From contig JAAUUE010000002.1 of assembly GCA_012031635.1 (NCBI GenBank), positions 1-40,745 of the forward strand: a stretch of DNA of 40,745 nt. Direction: 5' to 3'. Below the pieces are notes generated by a model. It made no database searches and had not been told where the DNA came from. It was given only the letters and a program-made list of their open reading frames with translations. Positions 2,650 to 25,851 of this stretch are shown here, one piece after another (positions within the stretch are counted from its first letter, which is position 1; each line of letters opens with the position of its first letter). The DNA comes from Coleofasciculaceae cyanobacterium SM2_1_6. Its GTDB lineage: Bacteria > Cyanobacteriota > Cyanobacteriia > Cyanobacteriales > JAAUUE01. Position numbers and translations under genes: made by a program.

Positions 2650-2898
2650 ATGAGCGTTATAATTTCTGATGATATCCTACAAGCATCTCAGCTTACCCCC
2701 GGCGAGTTCCGCCAAGAGATTGCCCTATACCTATTCCAAACAGGGCACTTAACTTTGGGTTATGCCAGTAAATTAGCAGAGATCCACACGAATGATTTTC
2801 GTCAACTCCTCAAACAAAGGAATATTCCTCTCTACGTCTATGATGTAGAGGATTTGGAATTAGATTTGAAAAATTTACGGGAGTTGGGGCGATTGTGA
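2650..2898 (+). CDS. UPF0175-family antitoxin-like protein
   Basis: The sequence ...EFRQEIALYLFQTGHLTLGYASKLAEIHTNDFRQLLKQRNIPL matches my recollection of the UPF0175 consensus (helix-turn-helix-like, ending in GIP). It is followed by a PIN/DUF3368-like remnant with a GTGA start/stop overlap. Confidence 0.7.
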   Translation: MSVIISDDILQASQLTPGEFRQEIALYLFQTGHLTLGYASKLAEIHTNDFRQLLKQRNIPLYVYDVEDLELDLKNLRELGRL

Positions 2899-2987
2899 TT
2901 GTTATCAGTGATACATCAATAATTGCTAGTCTGGCTGCTATTCAATATTTACAACTTCATTCTCTAGGTAGAGCGATGATATGTTAA
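2895..2987 (+). pseudogene. truncated PIN-like (DUF3368-type) toxin remnant, only 30 codons
   Basis: The GTG at 2895 overlaps the upstream stop. The translation VIVISDTSIIASLAAIQYLQLH... resembles the N-terminus of DUF3368 PIN proteins (xxVVSDTSPLxxL) and stops after 30 aa. Confidence 0.5.
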
Positions 2988-3009
2988 AGTTGGTCTAAAT
3001 TAAAGGTTT

Positions 3010-3354
3010 ATGAAGTTACCTTATGGAGATAGAGTTAGTTTAGAACAGATTATTTCTAAATTAGAGACTTACTCATTAAATGTTAATCATAGTAGTGGCA
3101 AGCATAAGGCTAGGTTATTTCAATCAAAGTTGGGAATTACTAAGCAGAACAGTTCGGTATTGATTACGGCTATTTGCAATGTGGCAACAACTTCTGAGGA
3201 AGTACAGTTTGCCAAGTCGGATGAATACGGCGATCGCTACATCATCATTTTTGACTTGGAAACAAATTTGGGTAAATCATCAATACTGAGTGCTTGGATT
3301 ATTCATCATGGAGAAACTTTTCCTAGATTGACTAGTATTTATCCGATTCGCTAA
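3010..3354 (+). CDS. DUF6883-like protein
   Basis: It shows the pattern KL..Y.L...H..GKHKARLF.S.LG... and C-terminal W.I..GE.FPRL.S.YP, as I recall for DUF6883. It is paired with a DUF4926-like gene 11 nt downstream. Confidence 0.6.
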   Translation: MKLPYGDRVSLEQIISKLETYSLNVNHSSGKHKARLFQSKLGITKQNSSVLITAICNVATTSEEVQFAKSDEYGDRYIIIFDLETNLGKSSILSAWIIHHGETFPRLTSIYPIR

Positions 3355-3365
3355 GGAGGCTCATT

Positions 3366-3617
3366 ATGAAAAAAATTAAGTTGCATGAAATGGTGGCTCT
3401 TAAGGAAGATATTCGGTCAATTCGTTTTTTAACAGAGATGCCTATTTTGCTAAGCCAAGGTCAGGTGGGGACAGTGATCGATGTGTTGGGTGGAGGGGAG
3501 GCGTATGAGGTGGAATTTGCGGATTTACAGGGTCAGGCTTATGCGGTGTTGGCTATTAAGGCAGAAAAACTGATGGTTTTACGCTACGAACCTGTTGATT
3601 TGTTGGGCGTAAATTGA
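3366..3617 (+). CDS. DUF4926-like protein
   Basis: An 83-aa small beta-rich protein (..VAL.EDI......GQVGTVIDVL..GEAYEVEF.D..G...AVLA), which matches my recollection of DUF4926. It has the RBS AGGAGG before its ATG. Confidence 0.6.
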   Translation: MKKIKLHEMVALKEDIRSIRFLTEMPILLSQGQVGTVIDVLGGGEAYEVEFADLQGQAYAVLAIKAEKLMVLRYEPVDLLGVN

Positions 3618-10726: not shown

Positions 10727-11056
10727 TTAAGCGATCACAATTTTTGTTTGAGCCGGAAATTCTGGTCTAGGTTTAGGAATAACCCGAATTTCTACATCAC
10801 TGCCGAGAGCATTCAAGAATCTAAAAAGCCGCTCAGTTGAGAACCCAGAAAGTTTCCCATGTAAGAGAGCAGAAACTTTAGGCTGATCAATCCCCAGAAT
10901 ATTTGCTACTTCAGTTTGAGTTAAGTTTCTAGCATTAATCAAGCTACTAATTTGTCGGACAAGTTCGGCTTTAATCAACAATTCATCAGGATTTGCCAAT
11001 CCTAAATCTGCAAAAACATTACCACTAGTAGCCTGTACCTTAATTTTCTCACTCAT
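10727..11056 (-). CDS. XRE-family HTH antitoxin (HigA-like)
   Basis: The HTH reads LTQTEVANILGIDQPKVSALLHGKLSGFSTERLFRFLNALG. It lies 2 nt downstream of a Gp49/RelE-like toxin gene. Confidence 0.8.
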   Translation of the reverse strand: MSEKIKVQATSGNVFADLGLANPDELLIKAELVRQISSLINARNLTQTEVANILGIDQPKVSALLHGKLSGFSTERLFRFLNALGSDVEIRVIPKPRPEFPAQTKIVIA

Positions 11057-11058
11057 TT

Positions 11059-11439
11059 TTAACTATCCTCTAAACGCTGTTTGTGGTACTGAGCGTAATG
11101 CTCCTTCGCTCGTTTTAGCCGTGTCTCGATCACTTCCATATCTTGTTTTGGGGTGGCAATTCCATGCTTAGATTTCTTCTGAAATGCATGTAGCACATAC
11201 ACAACTTCTTCAAATTTAATTGTGTACACTGCTCGATAAGTGTCCCCATCATAATCCTGAATAACTTCCAGAACAGAGGATCCTTTAAATCCCTTGAGTG
11301 GTTTTACCCTTAGATGTTTTTCGCCACATTGTGCCAGATAAAGTGCATACCCCACTGATTGTTGAACATCTTCTGGAAATTCCTTCAAATCGTCAAGGGA
11401 ACTAGCAATCCATTCAATTGGCTTTGGATAGGAGTTCAT
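11059..11439 (-). CDS. type II toxin, RelE/ParE superfamily (phage Gp49-like / HigB-type)
   Basis: The motifs W...S.L.DL..FP..V....G..L...Q.G......KPLKGF...VLE......G..YR.VYT..F...VYVLH.FQKKS are typical of Gp49-like toxins. The toxin-first order with an XRE partner supports the call. Confidence 0.8.
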   Translation of the reverse strand: MNSYPKPIEWIASSLDDLKEFPEDVQQSVGYALYLAQCGEKHLRVKPLKGFKGSSVLEVIQDYDGDTYRAVYTIKFEEVVYVLHAFQKKSKHGIATPKQDMEVIETRLKRAKEHYAQYHKQRLEDS

Positions 11440-11534: not shown

Positions 11535-13335
11535 TTAGGCAGGAACTTCAAACTGGATATCACCTCCTAAATTAAAGGCGGAATGGATCACCTGTAAAGC
11601 CCGCACTCCCTCATCTTGTGCGACTACACAACTTACCTTGATTTCGGAAGTCGTGATCATGTAAATATTGATCTGCTCCGCAGCTAGGGCTGCAAACATC
11701 CGGGCGGCAGTACCGGGATACCCTACCATCCCCGCACCGACAATACTCACCTTGGCGATCGCTCATCTACCACCACTTCACTACAGGGCAGCATTCCCCC
11801 CAATTTTTGCAAAATCTCTTGGGCGAAGGGAGCATCTCCCTGATGGACGGTAAAGGCAATATCACGGGTAGGGACATCCTCGATTACCCGACAGCGTTGA
11901 GATTGAATAATCATATCCACACTGATATTTGCTTCCGCAAGGGCGTGGAATAGCTGGGCTGCCATGCCGGGACGATCGGGAACGTAGCGGAGGGCTAATT
12001 GGGCTTGATTTAAATCCAGAGCCACGCCCCGGACAGCAGGAGCGATCGAAGCTGGGGCTGCCACGGGGGTCATGAGGGGGGAATTATCTACCTCAAAGCT
12101 ATCACAGAGAGCCTTGATCGCTCGATCGGCTTCAGTCTCAGCAATGATGCAACTAACCTTGACTTCAGAAGTAGTGATCAATCGGATATTTACCCCCGCC
12201 GCCGCTAGGGAATTAAACATTTTGCAGCAATCCCCGGTCTGCCAATCATCCCCGCTCCCGCGATCGCAATCTTGGCAATATCTTTCTCCACCATCACTTC
12301 TACGGGAGTAGTTGCCTCTCCCTGCAAACTAGGAATAATCGCCACGGCTACGGCTTCGGTGCGTTTGGCTTCGGCTCTGGTGACGGTGCAGGCAATGTCG
12401 TTGGTGTTACCTTCGTGGATGGATTGAATGATTAGGTCTATATCAATATTTTTCTGGGAAATTTCCCCAAACAGATGGGCAGCAATACCGGGGCGATCGG
12501 GCACTCGCCAGAGGGAAACTTTTGCTTGGTCGAGGTCAAATTCCACGGCATCCACGGGACGAGTTAACTCCAAATCTGTGAGGGGACGAGCTTGGATCGG
12601 GGGACACAGAACCTTGGTACCAGGATCATCACTCCAGCTAGAACGAACGACCAAATCTACCCCATAGTTCCGGGCAATCTCCACGGCGCGGGGATGGAGA
12701 ACCTTTGCTCCTAAACTTGCCAGTTCTAGCATTTCGTTAGCGGTGATTTCCCGGAGGAGTTGAGCATTGGGGACAAGACGGGGATCGGTGGTGAGAATGC
12801 CGGGAACATCGGTGTAAATCTCGCAGTAGTCAGCTTTGATGGCAGCAGCTAGAGCCACGGCAGAAGTATCAGAGCCGCCCCGACCGAGGGTAGTGATCTC
12901 TAGTTCGCTAGTGTTGCTAATCCCCTGAAACCCAGCAACAACAATCACTTTTCCTTCTTGGAGATGGCGCTGGAGGCGATCGGGGGAAATCTCCAATATC
13001 CTTGCCTTACTGTGGGCTGCTTCAGTAACAATCCCCACCTGCGCCCCGGTGAGCGAAATGGCATCCTGTCCTAATTCTTGCAGCGCCATGGTCAGGAGAG
13101 CGATCGAGACCTGTTCCCCGGTAGACAGCAACATATCCATTTCCCGGCGGCTGGGGTTGCTAGAGATTTCCTTAGCAAGGCTCACCAAGCCATCGGTAGT
13201 TTTGCCCATGGCTGACACCACGACTACAAGGGAATTTCCTGCTTTTACCGTCTGCTGGACTCGCTTCGCCACTGCCTGAATCCGCTCTACCGAACCCACA
13301 GAACTACCGCCGTATTTTTGGACAACTAACGCCAT
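11535..13335 (-). pseudogene. lysC: aspartate kinase (long cyanobacterial form with duplicated ACT domains), split into three ORFs by two 1-nt frameshifts that may be sequence errors
   Basis: ORF 12205..13335 reads [14 protein letters not shown]...[16 protein letters not shown] 11747..12220 continues [29 protein letters not shown] 11535..11750 continues (V)SIVGAGMVGYPGTAARMF. The junctions lie at a T4 run (12220-12223) and near 11762, and one extra base at each restores a single ~600-aa protein. Confidence 0.85.
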
Positions 13336-20425: not shown

Positions 20426-20601
20426 ATCTAAGTCTAGGATGAGGGCAAAACGGAAAAAAGCGGCTTGGGATATTGCTTATCTAAGTCATCTTCTGTCCCT
20501 TTGATTTTTATGCAGTTGCCCTGATATCAAAATGGCTGGCTAAGCTTAGAAATTAGTAAGATGCTATTATCAAAATCAGATAGTACTACCGAATACTTAC
20601 T

Positions 20602-20862
20602 ATGCCTCTTATCGAACTCCTACCAACCGTTAGTCAACTGACGCATCAAGATAAGCTCCGACTTATTCACTTCCTTTTGCTTGCAATTGCTAGAGAGGAA
20701 GGATGTAGCCTAGAAACTGCTCATAATCAACATTATGAAAATACCCTGATGAAGCAACTAGCGATTACTGAAGCTGTTGTATGGTCACCTCAAGCCGATC
20801 ATAAAGCGGTTCAAGCCTTGTCAGACCTTTTAGTTGCAGCACAGGGTGTATCGAATGCTTGA
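20602..20862 (+). CDS. small helical protein, first gene of protease module 1 (paralog of 23988..24209)
   Basis: It shares the N-terminal motif (L/P)xxQL(T/S)HxDKLxLxxFL with the ORF at 23988..24209. It overlaps the downstream protease gene by 8 nt (ATGCTTGA). Confidence 0.5.
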   Translation: MPLIELLPTVSQLTHQDKLRLIHFLLLAIAREEGCSLETAHNQHYENTLMKQLAITEAVVWSPQADHKAVQALSDLLVAAQGVSNA

Positions 20863-21274
20863 TGGTCATCGTTTTTCATTTACAGAAAAGACTGATAGTT
20901 CTGGTCGCTCTAGCATCTTGCCATACTTACCACTAACCTTGACTAATGGAAAACGTTCAATTGAGGTTATGGCTTTATTGGACACTGGTGCTAGTGTTAA
21001 TGTCTTACCCTACGAAATTGGGTTACAAATGGGAGCAGTCTGGGAAAATCAAACTGTTCAAGTTCCCTTAAGTGGAAACCTTGCTCATAGTGAGTCACGG
21101 GGACTCGTTTTGACCGGGAAAGTTGCACATTTCCCACCTGTTTTACTCGCCTTTGCATGGACTCAAGCAACAGATGTACCAGTAATTTTAGGTCACATGA
21201 ATTTTTTTGCGGAATTCAACGTGTGTTTTTATCGCCATGAGTTAGCTTTTGAGATTTGCCCACTCCAAACATAA
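20855..21274 (+). CDS. retropepsin-like (clan AA) aspartic protease
   Basis: LPYLPLTL.....IEVMALLDTGASVNVLP contains the catalytic D-T-G. The protein is small (~139 aa), as is typical of bacterial retropepsin-like proteins. I prefer the ATG at 20855. Confidence 0.7.
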   Translation: MLDGHRFSFTEKTDSSGRSSILPYLPLTLTNGKRSIEVMALLDTGASVNVLPYEIGLQMGAVWENQTVQVPLSGNLAHSESRGLVLTGKVAHFPPVLLAFAWTQATDVPVILGHMNFFAEFNVCFYRHELAFEICPLQT

Positions 21275-21353
21275 AGTGTTGCTAACCCACCCGCAGCATA
21301 ACTAGATCTTTAGTACGAAGTGATTAATCAAAAGCTTTCTATATAACATATCG

Positions 21354-21403
21354 TATAGGGCAGATAACCAGAAACTTGACATTCAGCCTATCTGCCCTAT
21401 AGT
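21354..21403 (+). promoter_or_regulatory. near-consensus sigma70-type promoter (TTGACA-16 nt-TATAGT) embedded in a 13-bp perfect inverted repeat
   Basis: TATAGGGCAGATA (21354-21366) pairs with TATCTGCCCTATA (21389-21401). TTGACA lies at 21376-21381 and TATAGT at 21398-21403. No ORF follows for about 350 nt. Confidence 0.4.
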
Positions 21404-21598
21404 CAGATTAGGCAGAAAAATTCCGTCTAATACATAGTTAGACTTTAGTCCCTAGTTTCCGATCGATTATCGGTCAAGGATCAGCATCAGCAAGCAGAGA
21501 CTTATTAGTTTAATCCATCAGTTTGGGTGAGTCGATTCGCTTTGCGATCCCTGCGGGAATCGAGCGATCGACCAAGTCAAGTTAGCGAGGGTTGGCTT

Positions 21599-21685
21599 GT
21601 CTAACACTTCATTGCAGCGGACGGTTGGGCGATCGTTTGTTGAGTGTTAAAATCTAATCACCGCCGCTGAACTTCACCGTTAGGC
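21599..21685 (+). other. 87-bp imperfect palindrome A with attC-like outer boxes (GTCTAAC ... GTTAGGC)
   Basis: GTCTAAC (21599-21605) fits RYYYAAC and GTTAGGC (21679-21685) fits GTTRRRY. The inner stem is CAGCGG-a-CGGT / ACCG-CCGCTG with a bulged A. The block between the outer box and the stem does not pair well. It shares TGCAGCGGA, CCGCTGA and ACCGTTAG with element B. Confidence 0.4.
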
Positions 21686-21762
21686 GGCTCAAGGTTATCT
21701 GTGGGGGCGCAGCCGAAAGACCATTAGTGTGACACTTCAATCACAATCAGAAATTGCCTGGT

Positions 21763-22838
21763 ATGGGACACGTTTTCAAGCCAAGTACAATACCGACTGT
21801 TGACGAGTACGTGTCGGGTTTATCTGCAATTCGTTCTCGTATCAGTGAGTCGCAGTTTCGTTTGCTGCAAGAGCAGTATTATGCTCCAAATCGTACTACT
21901 ACAGCGACCCAACTTGCAGAGTTAATAGGGATTGAGAGTGGGCGTGGAGCGATCAATCTGATGTATGGTTGGCTAGGGCGCTTATTCTGTGAAGCAACAG
22001 GGTTTGAGCCGAGTCAGCGAGAAGTTGGCACACATCGCTGGTGGTCTGTGTGGTCTAGCGGATATGAAGAGCGCAATCCCTATCGTTTTTTTGGAAGATG
22101 CACCCAGAAGTTGCTGAAGCTTTAGAACATTTAGGTTGGGTGAGTTCTAATTCGGCAATAAGTCGCTATCAGCAAATTTTTAGTGAATTAGTTTATGAGC
22201 GAGACGATCGTAGTCCTCCCGATGCCCGAAGGCAGGCACAATTTAAGATTGGTTGGGAAAACGCCGCCATGCAAAGGAGAACTTATACAAGTGAAACTTT
22301 AAATTCAGTTCTTACTTGGAATAATTTGGGCTATCGCTTTGGGCTGAAATTAGGACAGTGTTCTAATTCGGAAATTCAAGCAGCTTATGACTTTTTAGCT
22401 CAAGAATATCAAATCAATTCCTCTGGCTCAAAGCAGCTAAATATAACCAATATTTATCCTGATGAGGTGGCTTCAGAGGAGATTTTTCGAGAAGGGTCAG
22501 TACGTCAAGTTTCAGTTAATGCCTATGAGCGAGATCCTAAAGCACGCCAGAAGTGCATCGATTATTATGGCTTAAGTTGCTCAGTTTGCAGTTTTAATTT
22601 TGGTGAGTTCTTTGGAGAGTTAGGTGAAGGCTTTATCCATGTTCACCACTTACGCCCTATTTCAGAGATTGCCAAAGAGTATGAAGTTGACCCCGTAAAA
22701 GATTTACGCCCAGTTTGCCCAAATTGTCACGCTATGATTCATCGCCGTTCTCCACCACTGAGTATTGAGGAGCTTCAAGTTTTGGTGAGAAATTCTAAAG
22801 TTCAACCGCCTCCTAACAATTCGGGTGCAGCGGATTGA
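21763..22838 (+). pseudogene. HNH endonuclease (COG3183-like HNH at the C-terminus, unknown N-terminal domains), split by a 1-nt frameshift in a T7 run
   Basis: ORF 21754..22125 ends ...ERNPYRFF and ORF 22098..22838 begins MHPEVAEALEHLGW. An eighth T in the run at 22086-22092 would give YRFFWKMHPEVAEAL. The C-terminus reads NAYERDPKARQKCIDYYG.SCSVC.FNF....G..G.GFIHVHHL.P......EY.VDP..DLRPVCPNCHAMIH. Confidence 0.8.
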
Positions 22839-22897
22839 CCGAAGCCGCTTGGGGGAGATGCAAAGATCACGGCAACCGCTGACCCGAACCGTTAGAT
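22811..22897 (+). other. 87-bp imperfect palindrome B with attC-like architecture at the 3' end of the HNH gene
   Basis: The sequence is TCCTAAC aa TTCGGGT g CAGCGG a TTG a CCG [28-nt loop] CGG CAA CCGCTG ACCCGAA cc GTTAGAT. About 24 bp pair in five blocks. Three single-base bulges all lie on the 5' arm. A 2x2 unpaired spacer follows the outer boxes. The outer boxes match RYYYAAC at 6/7 and GTTRRRY at 7/7. Confidence 0.5.
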
Positions 22898-22982
22898 TGA
22901 TTAGAATGCTAGACGCTTTGGGAAAATTACGATGAGGACGATCGCCGATCTTGTAGGATACATTAATGAAATGTAATGCGCC
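22891..22982 (+). repeat. 92-bp island junction repeat, copy 1
   Basis: GTTAGATTGATTAGAATGCTAGACGCTTTGGGAAAATTACGATGAGGACGATCGCCGATCTTGTAGGATACATTAATGAAATGTAATGCGCC is about 89% identical to copy 2. Confidence 0.9.
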
Positions 22983-23075
22983 TTATCTTCATTATTAACA
23001 AAAGCAATCTATTCAGAGCGATTTCTGGTTAGCTATAATGTCGGATAAGGCAGTAATTAAGGAAAATTTACAATC

Positions 23076-23348
23076 ATGGCAGTTCGTCAACCCCGCTATA
23101 GTAAAGAAGAATTTGCCCGAAGAGGCGATCTCATTTATCAAACGCAAATACGCCCACAAGTTGAGGCAGGTAATCATGGCAAAATTGTAGCGATCGACAT
23201 TGAGACTGGAGACTTTGAAATTGATGCTCATGAAATCACTGCCTGCGATCGGCTCGAAGCCCGTCATCCAGATGCTCAAGTCTGGATTGTTCGAGTCGGT
23301 TCTCACCATGTTCGCCGATTTGGTGGACGCACAAAGAGAGCAGTATGA
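23076..23348 (+). CDS. small hypothetical protein, first gene of protease module 2
   Basis: A 90-aa ORF with a TATAAT box at 23035-23040 upstream. It overlaps the downstream protease ORF by ATGA. I recall this type of partner next to clan AA proteases in cyanobacteria. Confidence 0.55.
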   Translation: MAVRQPRYSKEEFARRGDLIYQTQIRPQVEAGNHGKIVAIDIETGDFEIDAHEITACDRLEARHPDAQVWIVRVGSHHVRRFGGRTKRAV

Positions 23349-23722
23349 TCACAGGAATTGTTAATGCCGATTTTGAGGCGATTATCTCGCTTTCGATATG
23401 CGGCTCTGATGGAAAAATTCACGCATAAGATGCGGTTGTTGATACAGGCTTTAACGGTTGGCTTTCATTGCCTCCAGACCTAATTGATCATTTGCATCTC
23501 AAATGGAAAAGACGGGGACGCGCTATTCTTGGAGATGGTAGCGAATGCGTTTTTAATATCTATGAAGGCGTTGTAATGTGGGATGGAGATTATCTGACTA
23601 TCCCCATTGATGAAGCTGATTCGGAACCTCTTGTGGGAATGTCATTGATGGAAGGCTATCAACTCACAGTTCAAGTATTTGAAGCAGGTATCGTAGAAAT
23701 CCGAAAAGTAAGCGCTGTCTAA
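23345..23722 (+). pseudogene. clan AA aspartic protease (DTGF type) with an in-frame TAA at 23426-23428
   Basis: The translation reads MITGIVNADFEAIISLSICGSDGKIHA*DAVVDTGFNGWLSLPPDLIDHLHLKWKRRGRAILGDGSECVFNIYEGVVMWDG.... The stop lies just before the catalytic DTG, and the frame continues into ORF 23468..23722. Confidence 0.7.
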
Positions 23723-23729
23723 CTAGATC

Positions 23730-23821
23730 GTGAGATTGATTAGAATGCTAGACGCTTTGGAAAAATTACGATAAGGACGATCGCCGATCTTGTAGGCTGT
23801 ATTAATGAAATACAACGCACC
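23730..23821 (+). repeat. 92-bp island junction repeat, copy 2
   Basis: GTGAGATTGATTAGAATGCTAGACGCTTTGGAAAAATTACGATAAGGACGATCGCCGATCTTGTAGGCTGTATTAATGAAATACAACGCACC is preceded by GTCTAAC-TAGATC (23717-23729). Confidence 0.9.
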
Positions 23822-23839
23822 TCTTTTTTTCCAGCTAAA

Positions 23840-23995
23840 CTATAAAACATTCACACTAGAGCCAGTGTCCAAAAGTCCTGAAACACTCAGGGATTGATTT
23901 TGATACATTAATGTCAATGGTAAATAAGGAAGCGTACTTAATGCTCCAAGACTGGGATTTACCTCAGTGAAAGCAAATCTTACTTTATTAGCCAT
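23840..23995 (-). pseudogene. 3'-truncated retropepsin-like protease (51 codons), second gene of protease module 3
   Basis: The minus-strand translation MANKVRFAFTEVNPSLGALSTLPYLPLTLMYQNQSLSVSGLLDTGSSVNVL* parallels the first third of the 20855..21274 product. It stops about 18 nt from the end of repeat copy 2. Its start overlaps the upstream gene by ATGGCTAA. Confidence 0.6.
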
Positions 23996-24209
23996 GAGTC
24001 AATTCTTGCTTCTCTTTTAATGCTTGAGCAAGAATGGCGGCAGCCTCAAAAGAGTCATGTAAACCTTGTCTAGGCAGGTCATCTTGGATAGATAGGGGTA
24101 CAATACCAGAATCTTTGAGCAACTCCGCTACAAGAAAGTTAAGTAATAAAAGTTTATCAGAGTGAGACAATTGCCTAAGCAGGGGAACAAATTCAGTAGT
24201 TGTCAGCAT
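23988..24209 (-). CDS. small helical protein, first gene of protease module 3 (paralog of 20602..20862)
   Basis: MLTTTEFVPLLRQLSHSDKLLLLNFLVAELL aligns with MPLIELLPTVSQLTHQDKLRLIHFLLLAIA. Confidence 0.55.
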   Translation of the reverse strand: MLTTTEFVPLLRQLSHSDKLLLLNFLVAELLKDSGIVPLSIQDDLPRQGLHDSFEAAAILAQALKEKQELTHG

Positions 24210-24309
24210 AGATTTTAAGAAAACTATAGATTTTGATCTCTTTTACTCCGCCCCAGTATAACACTACCTTCGTGCTAACCCTTATCCATGAAAGCCGTCT
24301 AACTAGACC

Positions 24310-24355
24310 GTTAGATTGATTAAAATACTAGACGCTTTGGAAAATATGGTTAGCA
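24310..24355 (+). repeat. island junction repeat, copy 3 (5' 46 bp only)
   Basis: GTTAGATTGATTAAAATACTAGACGCTTTGGAAAAT is preceded by GTCTAAC-TAGACC (24297-24309) and then diverges. Confidence 0.8.
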
Positions 24356-24396: not shown

Positions 24397-24690
24397 ATGC
24401 GTATCTTGTCCCGTAGCACCCTACGAAATTTCTGGGAGACTCATCCAGATGCCGAAGAAGCACTGAAGACTTGGTACTACGAAGCGTCTCATGCTAATTG
24501 GCAGAGTCCAGTTGATGTTAAGGCTGCTCATAGTAGTGCCAGTATCGTTGCGAACAACCGTGTGGTTTTCAATATCAAAGGCAACACCTATCGGTTAATT
24601 GTGGCAATTCGTTATGACATTGGTATTATTTTTATTCGATTTATTGGCACTCATGCTGAGTATGACAAAGTAGATGCAGAAATAATATGA
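24397..24690 (+). CDS. higB: type II toxin HigB (mRNA interferase, HigB_toxin family)
   Basis: MRILSRSTLRNFWETHPDAEEALKTWYYEA..ANW.SP.DVKA...SASIV.NNRVVFNIKGN.YRLIV.I.Y......IRFIGTHAEYDKVDAE closely matches the family consensus as I remember it. Confidence 0.9.
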   Translation: MRILSRSTLRNFWETHPDAEEALKTWYYEASHANWQSPVDVKAAHSSASIVANNRVVFNIKGNTYRLIVAIRYDIGIIFIRFIGTHAEYDKVDAEII

Positions 24691-24704
24691 ATGGAGGCTA
24701 ATGT

Positions 24705-25082
24705 ATGGAGATACGTCCAATTAGAACACACACCGATTACCAGCAAGCTCTTCAAGAGATTGAGCTATTGTTTGATGTAGCCCCAAGTACACCCGAACAA
24801 GATCGACTAGATATTCTCAGTACTCTGGTAGAAGCTTATGAAAAGAAACACTTTCCAATTGAGTTACCTGATCCGATCGAAGCAATTCATTACTACATGG
24901 ACACCCGTGGGTGGTCTCGACGTGATTTGGAGCCATGTCTAGGCAGTCGAGCCAGAGTATCTGAGGTTCTATCTCGTAAACGTTCATTGACCTTAGAGAT
25001 GATTCGGAAACTGCATCAAGAGTTGGGAGTTCCTGCTGAGATTCTCATTCAGCCTTATGAGTCGGCACAAATCCCTGCCTAA
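24705..25082 (+). CDS. higA: HigA-type HTH antitoxin
   Basis: IRT..DYQQAL.EIE.L.D..P.TPE.DRLD.L.TLVEAYE.KH.PI..PDPIEAI...M...G.SR.DLEP.LGSRARVSEVLSRKR.LTLEMIRKLH..LG.PAE.L is the canonical partner of HigB. Confidence 0.9.
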   Translation: MEIRPIRTHTDYQQALQEIELLFDVAPSTPEQDRLDILSTLVEAYEKKHFPIELPDPIEAIHYYMDTRGWSRRDLEPCLGSRARVSEVLSRKRSLTLEMIRKLHQELGVPAEILIQPYESAQIPA

Positions 25083-25085
25083 TCA

Positions 25086-25172
25086 TTCTGATGAGAATAC
25101 TAGACGCTTTGGAAAATTATGAGGAGGACGATCGCCGATCTTGTAGAGTATGTTAATGAACTGTAACGCGCC
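25086..25172 (+). repeat. island junction repeat, copy 4
   Basis: TTCTGATGAGAATACTAGACGCTTTGGAAAATTATGAGGAGGACGATCGCCGATCTTGTAGAGTATGTTAATGAACTGTAACGCGCC starts 4 nt after the higA stop. Confidence 0.85.
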
Positions 25173-25191
25173 TCATGTCTATTTATGTAAT

Positions 25192-25851
25192 TTAATTGTT
25201 GAGCTGTTCTCTGACCCATTGGCGGACATGGCGCATTAAACTTTTTTCGCCCACAGTTTGACTAAGTTCCAAAAATGACCTCAGCACAACAGCATCAAAC
25301 CTTGGCAACACCATGGAAACTTCCCTGGGTTGATATCCTTGGTCTCCTAAACTCCAAATCGTTAAGCTATCACGATCGCACTGCCATACCTCCATCACTC
25401 CCAAAGCCGCATAGATTCCTAGCCGATTCATAGAACTACTAGTGTGATCAACCTCGATCGCTAAATCGGGAGGCGGATCAATAGTTAGATCGATTACATC
25501 CTTACCACGCACTGCTAACTCGTTTTGAATGTAATAGCACTCATCCGCTTCTAAACCCTTGCGTAGGTCTTCTCGTGTCCAAGTTGTTGAACCTAAACTA
25601 CAAATTTCAATCCCTAATTCTTCTGTCATCACTTCCACAAAACGACCAAGTAGTTTTTTATAGCGTTCGTGGGGGGGTAGTAGCCTGAGAATCTCCAAAA
25701 TTCCGTCATCATAAGTTAATCGCATTCCCGGTTGCGATGCCAAATCCTGTACCAAATTCTGATAAGTACCCCATTGAATCCCGGAAAGAATAGTTGTATT
25801 GATGGGAAATGGTTGTGCCAAATTCGAGTTAGAGGCGATCGCAGCAACCAT
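25192..25851 (-). CDS. Uma2-family (DUF820) endonuclease
   Basis: W..Y..L.......R..Y.DG.LEI....P.HE........EV...ELG.......STT........G.E.D.CYY........PPDLAIEV..TSSS..RL.IYA.LGV.E.W shows the PD-(D/E)XK-like Uma2 pattern. Confidence 0.85.
   Translation of the reverse strand: MVAAIASNSNLAQPFPINTTILSGIQWGTYQNLVQDLASQPGMRLTYDDGILEILRLLPPHERYKKLLGRFVEVMTEELGIEICSLGSTTWTREDLRKGLEADECYYIQNELAVRGKDVIDLTIDPPPDLAIEVDHTSSSMNRLGIYAALGVMEVWQCDRDSLTIWSLGDQGYQPREVSMVLPRFDAVVLRSFLELSQTVGEKSLMRHVRQWVREQLNN

What the first reader, a model, noticed from the sequence alone, without database searches (positions are those of the whole stretch)
20602..24209. Three 'small helical protein + retropepsin-like aspartic protease' gene pairs, a candidate uncharacterised TA-like system
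Three modules are present: module 1 (20602-21274), module 3 (24209-23840, minus strand) and a second type, module 2 (23076-23722). Each pairs a 73-90-aa protein with a ~125-140-aa DTG protease through overlapping start/stop codons (ATGCTTGA, ATGGCTAA, ATGA). In two of the three pairs the protease is inactivated: an in-frame TAA lies right before the DTG at 23426-23428, and the other gene is truncated after 51 codons. The small partner stays intact in both. This asymmetric decay, the tight coupling, the multiplicity and the TA-rich neighbourhood are the behaviour expected of toxin (protease) and antitoxin (small protein) pairs. I know of no characterised system of this composition.
Basis: inference. 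Interest (0 to 1): 0.7.

Follow-up and report, generated by a model that had tools for sequence, protein, structure and literature searches.

The report
Protease–antitoxin gene pairs in a cyanobacterium
The three gene pairs are real and fall into two widespread cyanobacterial two-gene cassettes, each with a small partner protein in front of an HIV-protease-like enzyme; the partner of one cassette is built like a classic antitoxin, so the protease is probably a new kind of toxin, although one cassette is already listed, untested, as a candidate phage-defence system.

Summary
Observation confirmed at the stated coordinates. Modules 1 and 3 are one family. Module 2 is a second, unrelated pair.

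Module 1 is an autonomous, horizontally mobile cassette of about 750 bp. A partner gene lay directly upstream of the protease in every one of about 155 genome and metagenome loci that had upstream sequence. Flanking genes are not conserved, and both genes are under purifying selection.

The protease has an invariant DTGA motif and a predicted retropepsin fold.

The key new result is that the small partner is modular, like a type II antitoxin. Its conserved C-terminal segment is fused in relatives to Phd/YefM or RelB-like antitoxin domains, and several of these chimeras still sit in front of the protease. Its own N-terminal domain also occurs in front of PIN toxins.

Decay is one-sided. The protease was broken with the partner intact in 16 loci. 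The reverse was never seen (about 9–10 expected).

Both proteins match PADLOC models PDC-M52A and PDC-M52B over their full length. PDC-M52 is an untested phage-defence candidate, so the pair is catalogued but uncharacterised.

Module 2 (a 90-aa partner plus a clan AA DTGF protease) is also a conserved pair in toxin-antitoxin-rich regions and on plasmids, but the case that its partner is an antitoxin is weaker.

Toxicity is inferred, not shown. The window carries probable indel errors, so the TAA in module 2 may not be real.

The parts
20553..20601 (+). Conserved 5' leader / probable promoter region of the module 1 cassette
   Evidence: DNA homology (84-88% nt) to cassettes in Microcystis, Nostocales, Merismopediaceae and Pseudanabaena starts at about 20553 and ends at about 21303. 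Short inverted repeats are present but not consistently conserved, so an operator is not established.
20602..20862 (+). A1: 86-aa partner protein, antitoxin-like (PADLOC PDC-M52A)
   Evidence: PDC-M52A at E 4e-45 over the full length. No Pfam, NCBIfam or PDB hit. Four predicted helices. Found directly upstream of the protease in all loci examined. dN/dS 0.16-0.18. Both halves are modular.
20855..21274 (+). P1: 139-aa retropepsin-like aspartic protease, putative toxin/effector (PADLOC PDC-M52B)
   Evidence: PDC-M52B at E 6e-81. Pfam Asp_protease_2 at E 0.005, below the curated cut-off. AlphaFold2 pLDDT 77. Best Foldseek PDB matches are Rickettsia APRc, the Ddi1 protease domain and HIV/FIV protease. 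DTGA present in 79 of 80 genome loci. dN/dS 0.12-0.14. 8-nt overlap with A1.
23076..23348 (+). A2: 90-aa partner of the second module type (orphan family, intact)
   Evidence: 6022 homologues, all named hypothetical. No Pfam, PDB or PADLOC hit. Always directly upstream of a 121-126-aa DTGF protease when that gene is present.
23345..23722 (+). P2: clan AA DTGF aspartic protease gene interrupted by one in-frame stop
   Evidence: NCBIfam TIGR03698 clan_AA_DTGF at E 4e-13, 49.5 bits, below the cut-off of 57.35. About 80% identical to intact 125-aa homologues. 4-nt ATGA overlap with A2.
23426..23428 (+). In-frame TAA codon in P2
   Evidence: Intact homologues have K, Q or V here. It is a single substitution and could be a sequencing error.
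23988..24209 (-). A3: 73-aa partner, divergent member of the A1 family, intact
   Evidence: Aligns with the A family. PDC-M52A at E 2.7e-5 on the N-terminal domain. Its C-terminus is of the variant lacking WSP that is also seen with intact proteases in L120, L123, L126 and L130.
23840..23995 (-). P3: 51-codon remnant of a P1-family protease
   Evidence: 57% identical to P1 residues 1-51. The remainder is deleted. The break lies about 20 nt from a copy of a 94-nt repeat at 23729-23822.

Best explanation
Modules 1 and 3 belong to a type II toxin-antitoxin-like, possibly abortive-infection, cassette (PADLOC candidate PDC-M52).

The downstream gene encodes a cytoplasmic retropepsin-like aspartic protease that, like other retropepsins, should act as a homodimer. 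It occupies the toxin/effector slot.

The upstream, translationally coupled gene encodes a modular antitoxin. Its conserved C-terminal helix-loop-helix segment (consensus LLxQLxxTxAVVWSPxxDxxxxQALSxLL) is proposed to bind and hold the protease inactive. Its exchangeable N-terminal domain is proposed to provide dimerisation or DNA binding for autoregulation.

When the partner is degraded, titrated or no longer made, the freed protease would cleave cellular or phage proteins and stop growth.

Module 3 is a decayed copy that keeps only the antidote. Module 2 is an unrelated pair (A2 plus a clan AA DTGF protease) that probably follows the same logic.

Shown: the pairing, the mobility, purifying selection, the protease fold and motif, the modular antitoxin architecture, and the one-sided decay. 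Inferred: toxicity, inhibition through the C-terminal segment, autoregulation, and the trigger.
For: 1. **Obligate pairing with a conserved 8-nt overlap.** 72 of 80 genome loci were found by tblastn; the rest were resolved by inspection as divergent or chimeric partners or contig ends. 77 of 77 metagenome loci with upstream sequence have the partner.
2. **Autonomous mobile cassette.** Nucleotide identity of 84-88% across cyanobacterial orders is confined to window 20553-21303. 650 flanking ORFs fall into 525 clusters, and the recurrent neighbours are DUF433/PIN-like, HicAB and VapC. The cassette occurs on three plasmids.
3. **Modular antitoxin.** The C-terminal segment is fused to Phd/YefM (P0463, PF02604, 57.4 bits against a cut-off of 29.8) and to RelB-like domains (PF18506, 30-35 bits against 27: L049, L074, L096, P0425). 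It is also fused to ParD-, RHH- and AF2212-like domains at sub-threshold scores. Several chimeras precede intact proteases (L049, L074, L096, L178, L179, L182). The native N-terminal domain also occurs directly upstream of PIN toxins (L184-L186).
4. **One-sided decay.** Among 160 loci retrieved by matching the protease, the protease was broken with the partner intact 16 times, the partner was broken with the protease intact 0 times, and both were broken once. About 9-10 partner-only breaks are expected from gene length; Poisson P(0) is 5e-5 to 6e-4.
5. **A working protease.** Invariant DTGA and ILGH motifs, a retropepsin fold, and dN/dS of 0.12-0.14.
6. **Independent listing.** The pair is PDC-M52, found embedded in BREX, DISARM or type I restriction-modification loci.
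7. **Module 2.** The pair is conserved at 35-37% identity. On plasmids there are 9 intact pairs, 1 partner with a truncated protease, 2 inactive protease remnants, and no intact protease without a partner.
Against: - No experiment shows toxicity or neutralisation, and no aspartic-protease toxin is established in any toxin-antitoxin system (no literature found).
- The protease family is unusually well conserved for a toxin (75-95% aa identity across a phylum).
- A1's own N-terminal domain has no significant match to a known DNA-binding family.
- No convincing conserved operator was found.
- Some broken proteases come from metagenome assemblies and could be assembly errors, although such errors should hit both genes in proportion to length.
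- For module 2 the partner has no antitoxin hallmark, and part of the decay evidence comes from searches anchored on A2.
- The TAA in the window may be a sequencing error.
Confidence: 0.6

Rival explanations
1. Regulatory proteolysis switch, analogous to ImmR/ImmA. The small protein is a DNA-binding repressor and the protease is its dedicated anti-repressor, cleaving it on a signal. The protease is not itself toxic.
For: - Relatives of the partner carry bona fide DNA-binding antitoxin domains.
- The conserved C-terminal segment could be a recognition or cleavage site; aromatic-Ser-Pro recalls the aromatic-Pro sites of retroviral proteases (own knowledge, not tested).
- Mobile-element context.
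Against: - The cassette is autonomous, with no conserved neighbouring target genes.
- If the protease were harmless, loss of the partner should be tolerated about as often as loss of the protease, yet 0 against 16 was observed.
- The partner's N-terminal domain is shared with antitoxins of PIN toxins.
Confidence: 0.15
2. Phage-defence system in the strict sense (PDC-M52). The small protein senses a phage cue and releases the protease to abort infection, and the pair has no addiction or plasmid-stabilisation role. This is compatible with the best explanation but differs on the selected function.
For: - Full-length matches to PADLOC PDC-M52A/B.
- These candidates were found embedded in BREX, DISARM or type I restriction-modification loci.
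- In the window, module 1 sits next to an HNH nuclease with weak type IV restriction hits.
Against: - Untested in the source study.
- Most of the loci examined lie among toxin-antitoxin genes or ordinary genes rather than in recognised defence systems.
- No relatives in phage genomes, PHROGs or IMG/VR that would indicate an arms race.
Confidence: 0.3
3. A non-toxic two-subunit enzyme or a precursor-processing pair. The small protein is a chaperone, cofactor or substrate precursor of a protease with an ordinary cellular role, as RimB trims glutamate tails.
For: - Very strong conservation and purifying selection of both genes.
- Known soluble bacterial retropepsin-like enzymes such as RimB and RloA have physiological, non-toxic roles (bioRxiv 10.1101/2025.03.18.643919).
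- The partner has a conserved acidic EE motif.
Against: - Patchy, horizontally transferred distribution with no conserved synteny.
- About 10% of copies carry a dead protease.
- Antitoxin domain swapping in the partner.
- One-sided decay.
- No export or modification genes nearby.
Confidence: 0.1

Closest known systems
PADLOC-DB phage defence candidate PDC-M52 (Payne et al., bioRxiv 10.1101/2024.01.29.577857)
   Same: A1 and P1 match the two profile models PDC-M52A (86 positions) and PDC-M52B (139 positions) end to end (E 4e-45 and 6e-81). Gene order and adjacency are the same. A3 matches M52A on its N-terminal domain.
   Different: PDC-M52 is only a catalogue entry. It is cassette CAS_00170, labelled 'assign as candidate', and is one of 145 untested candidates. 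No domain annotation, mechanism or phenotype was found in the held text. Here the cassette is not embedded in a BREX, DISARM or type I restriction-modification locus. Module 2 has no PADLOC match.
Type II toxin-antitoxin systems (Phd/Doc, RelBE, VapBC)
   Same: - Antitoxin-first two-gene operon with overlapping stop and start codons.
- A small, modular antitoxin whose N-terminal domains are shared with Phd/YefM, RelB-like and PIN-associated antitoxins.
- Location in toxin-antitoxin islands and on plasmids.
- Horizontal transfer.
- Orphan antitoxins left after the toxin decays.
   Different: The protein in the toxin slot is a retropepsin-like aspartic protease, a class not established as a toxin-antitoxin toxin. 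Toxicity, antitoxin lability and autoregulation are untested.
Bacterial retropepsin-like proteases (Rickettsia APRc; Pseudomonas RimB/RloA; SpoIIGA)
   Same: Single DTG-type half-domain and a predicted retropepsin fold. APRc (5c9f) is the best PDB match. An ILG motif follows the catalytic loop.
   Different: P1 is a 139-aa protein with no apparent membrane anchor or signal peptide (by inspection). It has a dedicated overlapping partner gene and only 12-16% identity to the solved structures. None of the known enzymes is part of a toxin-antitoxin-like pair.
NCBIfam TIGR03698 clan_AA_DTGF ('clan AA aspartic protease')
   Same: P2 aligns to 88 of 107 model positions and has the DTGF motif. RefSeq annotates homologues on Nostocales plasmids with this name.
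   Different: The window copy scores 49.5 bits, below the cut-off of 57.35, and carries a stop codon. The family name says nothing about the conserved 90-aa partner described here.
ImmA/ImmR-type protease-repressor pairs of mobile elements
   Same: A small DNA-binding-type protein paired with a dedicated protease in mobile contexts.
   Different: ImmA is a metalloprotease that cleaves its repressor to induce an element. Here the protease is aspartic, the cassette has no cargo to regulate, and the decay pattern indicates that the protease without its partner is selected against.

Membership tests
PADLOC PDC-M52 (candidate defence system) | First gene product matches model PDC-M52A | tested here: met
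   A1: E 4.3e-45, residues 1-86 on profile positions 1-86 of 86. A3: E 2.7e-5, N-terminal 32 residues only.
PADLOC PDC-M52 (candidate defence system) | Second gene product matches model PDC-M52B, adjacent and on the same strand | tested here: met
   P1: E 6.2e-81, residues 1-137 on profile positions 1-137 of 139. It overlaps A1 by 8 nt.
PADLOC PDC-M52 (candidate defence system) | Protects against phage | not testable with these tools
   Untested in the source study as well.
Type II toxin-antitoxin system | Two small adjacent co-directional genes forming an autonomous operon | tested here: met
   The overlap ATGCTTGA/ATGCTTAA is conserved in most loci. Homology is confined to about 750 bp. Flanks are variable.
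Type II toxin-antitoxin system | Antitoxin built from a DNA-binding/dimerisation domain plus a separate toxin-binding segment | tested here: met
   The C-terminal segment is fused to Phd/YefM (57.4 bits) and RelB-like (30-35 bits) domains in relatives, several of which sit in front of the protease. The native N-terminal domain is found in front of PIN toxins. DNA binding itself was not tested.
Type II toxin-antitoxin system | Toxin arrests growth and the cognate antitoxin neutralises it by direct binding | not testable with these tools
   Only indirect support: 16 loci with a broken protease and intact partner, against 0 of the reverse.
Type II toxin-antitoxin system | Transcriptional autoregulation through an operator in the promoter | tested here: inconclusive
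   Short inverted repeats lie around a -10-like box in one subfamily but are not conserved across the family.
Retropepsin-like aspartic proteases (MEROPS clan AA) | Catalytic D-T/S-G-A motif in a psi loop | tested here: met
   DTGA in P1, in P3 (DTGS) and in 79 of 80 genome loci. D43, T44, G45 and A46 are invariant.
Retropepsin-like aspartic proteases (MEROPS clan AA) | Retropepsin fold | tested here: met
   AlphaFold2 pLDDT 77, pTM 0.72. Foldseek probability 1.0 to APRc, the Ddi1 protease domain and HIV/FIV/M-PMV proteases, TM 0.4-0.6. Four of the five models were poor (pLDDT 35-46), so confidence is moderate.
Retropepsin-like aspartic proteases (MEROPS clan AA) | Curated HMM score above threshold (Pfam Asp_protease_2 / gag-asp_proteas) | tested here: not met
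   17.9 bits against a cut-off of 24.3, and 14.6 bits against 28.2. It is a divergent member recognised by motif and fold rather than by the Pfam model.
Retropepsin-like aspartic proteases (MEROPS clan AA) | Homodimeric active enzyme with proteolytic activity | not testable with these tools
   Requires biochemistry.
NCBIfam TIGR03698 clan_AA_DTGF (module 2 protease) | Score at or above the curated cut-off of 57.35 bits | tested here: not met
   49.5 bits, E 4.2e-13, for the window pseudogene with X at the stop. RefSeq homologues are named 'clan AA aspartic protease'.

The most novel reading that the evidence does not exclude
Retropepsin-like aspartic proteases are a previously unrecognised class of toxin-antitoxin / abortive-infection effectors. 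They would have been recruited at least twice in cyanobacteria: once as the P1 family, held in check by a modular Phd/RelB-type antitoxin through a dedicated C-terminal 'WSP' inhibitor segment, and once as the clan AA DTGF family, held in check by the unrelated 90-aa A2 protein. The same half-domain fold that retroviruses use for maturation would then serve in bacteria as a regulated self-poison.
Probability: 0.5. Interest if true: 0.78.

Novelty: new variant of a known kind. Interest (0 to 1): 0.64.

Why it matters
If the protease is the toxin, this adds a new enzymatic class, aspartic proteases, to the toxin-antitoxin and abortive-infection effector repertoire. It would also give the first function for a gene pair present in thousands of cyanobacterial sequence clusters, including bloom-forming Microcystis, Planktothrix and Dolichospermum and the model strain Nostoc PCC 7120. 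The partner's roughly 40-residue C-terminal segment would be a natural, genetically encoded inhibitor of a retropepsin-type protease, which is of interest for protease control and tool design. It would also turn an untested PADLOC candidate (PDC-M52) into a system with a concrete, testable mechanism.

Tried and rejected
- **Family searches for A1, A3 and A2.** Pfam, NCBIfam, PDB sequence searches and PHROGs gave nothing significant.
- **A-family profile against a DUF2281 protein (hhalign).** The residues line up, but the probability is 2%, so the resemblance is not supported.
- **Foldseek on the A1 model.** Only generic helical matches with E above 2.
- **Rfam on the whole window.** Only two tRNAs; the repeats are not a known RNA.
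- **Phage origin.** No relatives in IMG/VR, in 50,697 phage records or in PHROGs.
- **Conserved operator upstream of A1.** Not convincing.
- **Integron attC reading of the 94-nt repeats** (GTCTAAC / GTTAGAT motifs seen by eye). Considered, but the element is not an overall imperfect palindrome. Not pursued.
- **P0378, a 1828-aa hit with ten matches to the A profile.** A repetitive cell-wall protein and a spurious match.
- **Apparent 'partner truncated, protease intact' loci L049 and L074.** On inspection these are chimeric partners with RelB-like N-termini, not decay.
- **Five 'broken protease' calls with 130 or more residues.** Start-position artefacts; recounted as intact.

Full report
**1. 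Observation**

The ORF list and raw sequence reproduce every coordinate in the finding.

- Module 1: partner A1 at 20602-20862 (86 aa) overlaps protease P1 at 20855-21274 (139 aa, LLDTGASVNVLP) in ATGCTTGA.
- Module 3, minus strand: partner A3 at 24209-23988 (73 aa) overlaps a 51-codon protease fragment P3 at 23995-23840 in ATGGCTAA. The fragment ends right after DTGSSVNVL. A tblastn of P1 against the window finds no remnant of residues 52-139.
- Module 2: partner A2 at 23076-23348 (90 aa) overlaps P2 at 23345-23722 in ATGA. P2 has a TAA at 23426-23428, two codons before DAVVDTGF.

Pfam confirms that the neighbourhood is rich in toxin-antitoxin genes: HigB/HigA, Uma2, Gp49/HTH_37, DUF6883/DUF4926 and UPF0175.

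**2. Two families, not one**

A1 and A3 align into one family. It has:

- an N-terminal two-helix domain, LxxLsxxDKLxhhxFLxxEhxxEE;
- a variable linker;
- a C-terminal segment, hWSPxxxxxAxxxLxxLL. A3 belongs to a sub-variant without WSP.

A2 is unrelated to them. P1 and P2 share only the DTG region. P1 is a weak Pfam Asp_protease_2 hit, below threshold. P2 hits NCBIfam TIGR03698 clan_AA_DTGF at E 4e-13, below the curated cut-off. The partners have no Pfam, NCBIfam or PDB match.

**3. Module 1 is a conserved, autonomous, mobile pair**

- P1 has 1864 homologue clusters, nearly all of 139 aa and 75-95% identical across cyanobacterial orders. A1 has 750.
- In 80 genome loci, tblastn finds an A1 homologue directly upstream in 72. 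Most have the same 8-nt overlap. The other loci have divergent A3-like partners, chimeric partners, or end at a contig edge.
- In 80 metagenome loci, all 77 with upstream sequence have an A-family partner.
- Nucleotide identity of 84-88% to loci from Microcystis, Nostocales, Merismopediaceae and Pseudanabaena runs from about 20553 to 21303 and stops there.
- 650 flanking ORFs fall into 525 clusters. The recurrent neighbours are DUF433/PIN-like, HicAB and VapC.
- The pair occurs on three cyanobacterial plasmids. It is absent from phage collections.
- Both genes are under purifying selection: dN/dS is 0.16-0.18 for A and 0.12-0.14 for P.

**4. The protease**

DTGA is present in 79 of 80 genome loci, and D43-T44-G45-A46 and L112-G113-H114 are invariant in the protease alignment. 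The best AlphaFold2 model has pLDDT 77 and pTM 0.72, although the other four models were poor. It matches Rickettsia APRc, the Ddi1 retroviral-protease-like domain, and HIV, FIV and M-PMV proteases with Foldseek probability 1.0 and TM 0.4-0.6. By inspection there is no signal peptide or membrane segment.

**5. The partner is a modular antitoxin (the main new evidence)**

Loci that first looked like 'partner truncated, protease intact' (L049, L074) turned out to encode chimeric partners. These have a RelB-like antitoxin N-terminus (Pfam PF18506, 30.3 and 34.8 bits against a cut-off of 27) joined to the family's C-terminal segment. L096 is another such locus.

A profile search of 1.84 billion representative proteins found 275 clusters. 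In many, only the C-terminal segment matches, and it is fused to other N-termini:

- a full Phd/YefM domain (P0463, PF02604, 57.4 bits against a cut-off of 29.8);
- RelB-like (P0425, 31.9 bits);
- ParD-like (19.3 bits, just below threshold);
- FitA-RHH-like and AF2212-like (weak hits);
- a DUF2281-looking type with no Pfam hit, and a recurrent 'LPxExQDxIA' type.

The context of these chimeras was checked:

- The RHH-like chimera precedes an intact 141-aa protease that is 71% identical to P1 (L178, L179).
- The DUF2281-looking chimera precedes an intact protease that is 77% identical (L182).
- The AF2212-like chimera precedes a protease that is cut by the contig end (L183).
- The Phd/YefM and ParD-like chimeras are followed only by 10- and 23-codon protease remnants (L177, L181).

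Conversely, proteins with the native DKL N-terminal domain but a different C-terminus lie directly upstream of PIN-domain toxins (L184, with a 4-nt overlap; L185; L186). Exchangeable N-terminal domains joined to a toxin-specific C-terminal segment are the canonical type II antitoxin architecture (established knowledge of Phd/Doc, RelBE and VapBC).

**6. One-sided decay**

The 160 loci were retrieved by matching the protease, so the sample is unbiased with respect to the partner. After correcting five start-position artefacts:

| State | Loci |
|---|---|
| Both genes intact | 137 |
| Protease broken, partner intact | 16 (15 distinct lesions, including a 1.15-kb insertion in Moorena L068) |
| Both broken | 1 |
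| Partner broken, protease intact | 0 |

From gene lengths of 139 and 86 codons, 9-10 partner-only breaks are expected. Poisson P(0) is 5e-5 to 6e-4, allowing for shared ancestry among some loci. Assembly errors would affect both genes in proportion to length, so they do not explain the asymmetry. Module 3 in the window, and a second decayed module in L182, fit the same pattern.

**7. Prior knowledge**

PADLOC-DB v2 models PDC-M52A and PDC-M52B match A1 and P1 end to end (E 4e-45 and 6e-81). PDC systems are 145 untested 'phage defence candidates' derived from genes embedded in BREX, DISARM or type I restriction-modification loci (Payne et al., bioRxiv 10.1101/2024.01.29.577857). The supplement lists cassette CAS_00170 as 'Assign as candidate PDC-M52'.

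No paper in the held library links a retropepsin-like protease to toxin-antitoxin or phage-defence function. Characterised bacterial retropepsin-likes (APRc, RimB/RloA) have other roles. The pair is therefore catalogued but uncharacterised, and the antitoxin architecture and decay asymmetry reported here appear to be new.

**8. Module 2**

- A2 has 6022 homologue clusters, all named hypothetical.
- The pair with a 121-126-aa DTGF protease is found in Nostoc PCC 7107, Leptolyngbyaceae JSC-12, Microcystis and Microcoleus, next to BrnTA, transposases, Uma2, DUF433 and PemK; most copies share the ATGA overlap.
- It is also found at 35-37% identity on Nostoc PCC 7120 plasmid alpha, where RefSeq names the protease 'clan AA aspartic protease'.
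- On plasmids, searching with both proteins gave 9 intact pairs, 1 partner with a truncated protease (Oscillatoria acuminata), 2 inactive C-terminal protease remnants, and no intact protease without a partner.
- Look-ups anchored on A2 show the protease deleted in Planktothrix and truncated in Cylindrospermum, but that sampling is biased towards intact A2.
- A2 has no antitoxin hallmark and no PADLOC hit. The toxin-antitoxin reading for module 2 is plausible but weaker; I put it at about 0.35-0.4.

**9. Mechanism**

Best explanation (confidence about 0.6): a type II toxin-antitoxin-like, possibly abortive-infection, cassette. The homodimeric aspartic protease is the effector. The partner's C-terminal helix-loop-helix segment keeps it inactive. 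The partner's N-terminal domain mediates dimerisation or DNA binding.

- Shown: the pairing, the mobility, selection on both genes, the protease fold and motif, the modular partner, and the one-sided decay.
- Inferred: toxicity, the mode of inhibition, autoregulation (the operator search was inconclusive), and the trigger.

Rivals: an ImmR/ImmA-like regulatory switch (0.15); a pure phage-defence role (0.3, and not exclusive of the best explanation); a non-toxic enzyme with a cofactor or substrate partner (0.1).

**10. Caveats**

The window carries two frameshifts in aspartokinase and one in a T7 run of the HNH gene. These suggest indel sequencing errors, so the single-base TAA in P2 may not be real. 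The P3 truncation is structural and therefore real. Many loci come from metagenome-assembled genomes or metagenomes. Protein domain assignments below the curated thresholds are labelled as such.

**11. Verdict**

Novelty: a new variant of a known kind, namely type II toxin-antitoxin logic with an aspartic-protease effector. One of the two cassettes is already listed as an untested PADLOC candidate. Interest is about 0.64.

Noticed in passing
window 22890-22983, 23729-23822, 24294-24344, 25080-25173: A direct repeat of about 94 nt, always on the + strand, sits between successive cassettes: after the HNH gene, after module 2, between module 3 and HigB (5' half only), and after HigA. Copies 1 and 2 bracket module 2, and the P3 truncation lies about 20 nt from copy 2. 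The 3' half (GACGATCGCCGATCTTGTAGG plus a small hairpin) also occurs next to related cassettes in Planktothrix (L167-L172), L060, L002 and L005. There is no Rfam match. It may mark recombination sites that shuffle or truncate cassettes.
   Followed up: partly
window 21754-22838: An HNH endonuclease gene is split into two ORFs by a -1 frameshift in a T7 run (22086-22092). Adding one T restores a 361-aa ORF. It has weak hits to type IV methyl-directed and phosphorothioate-dependent restriction enzymes. It is either a pseudogene or a homopolymer sequencing error.
   Followed up: partly
window 11535-13335 (minus strand): The aspartokinase gene is broken into three ORFs by two frameshifts, one in an A-run near 12215 and one near 11750. 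Because this gene is normally essential, the window probably contains indel sequencing errors. That bears on how far single-base 'pseudogene' lesions elsewhere can be trusted.
   Followed up: partly
window 2650-3617, 10727-11439, 24397-25851: Further toxin-antitoxin-type genes: UPF0175 (2650-2898), DUF6883/DUF4926 pair (3010-3617), Gp49 (HigB-like)/HTH_37 pair (11439-10727), HigB/HigA (24397-25082) and a Uma2 nuclease (25851-25192).
   Followed up: partly
window 21354-21401: A 20-nt inverted repeat (85% complementary, 8-nt spacer) overlaps a near-consensus promoter-like site (TTGACA-16-TATAGT). An 89-nt stretch around it is 85% identical to a sequence 1.1 kb upstream of the cassette in Pseudanabaena locus L001 (2822-2910). 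It may be a small mobile or regulatory element.
   Followed up: no
L182 2054-2351 and 2501-3170: A metagenome contig carries an intact chimeric module directly preceded by a decayed copy (an intact A-like gene plus a 30-codon protease fragment). This is the same intact-plus-decayed arrangement as in the window.
   Followed up: partly
P0464 (92 aa, from the representative search): An A3-like N-terminus is fused in frame to the last ~32 residues of a P-family protease (…APLILGYMNFFLAFDVCFYRSELAFEITSKIV). It is apparently a deletion derivative that removed the catalytic part of the protease.
   Followed up: no
L043, L070, L025 (genome loci): Module 2-type pairs lie within 4 kb of module 1-type pairs in Microcystis ichthyoblabe and two Microcoleus genomes, so the two protease cassettes co-locate repeatedly, not only in this window.
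   Followed up: partly
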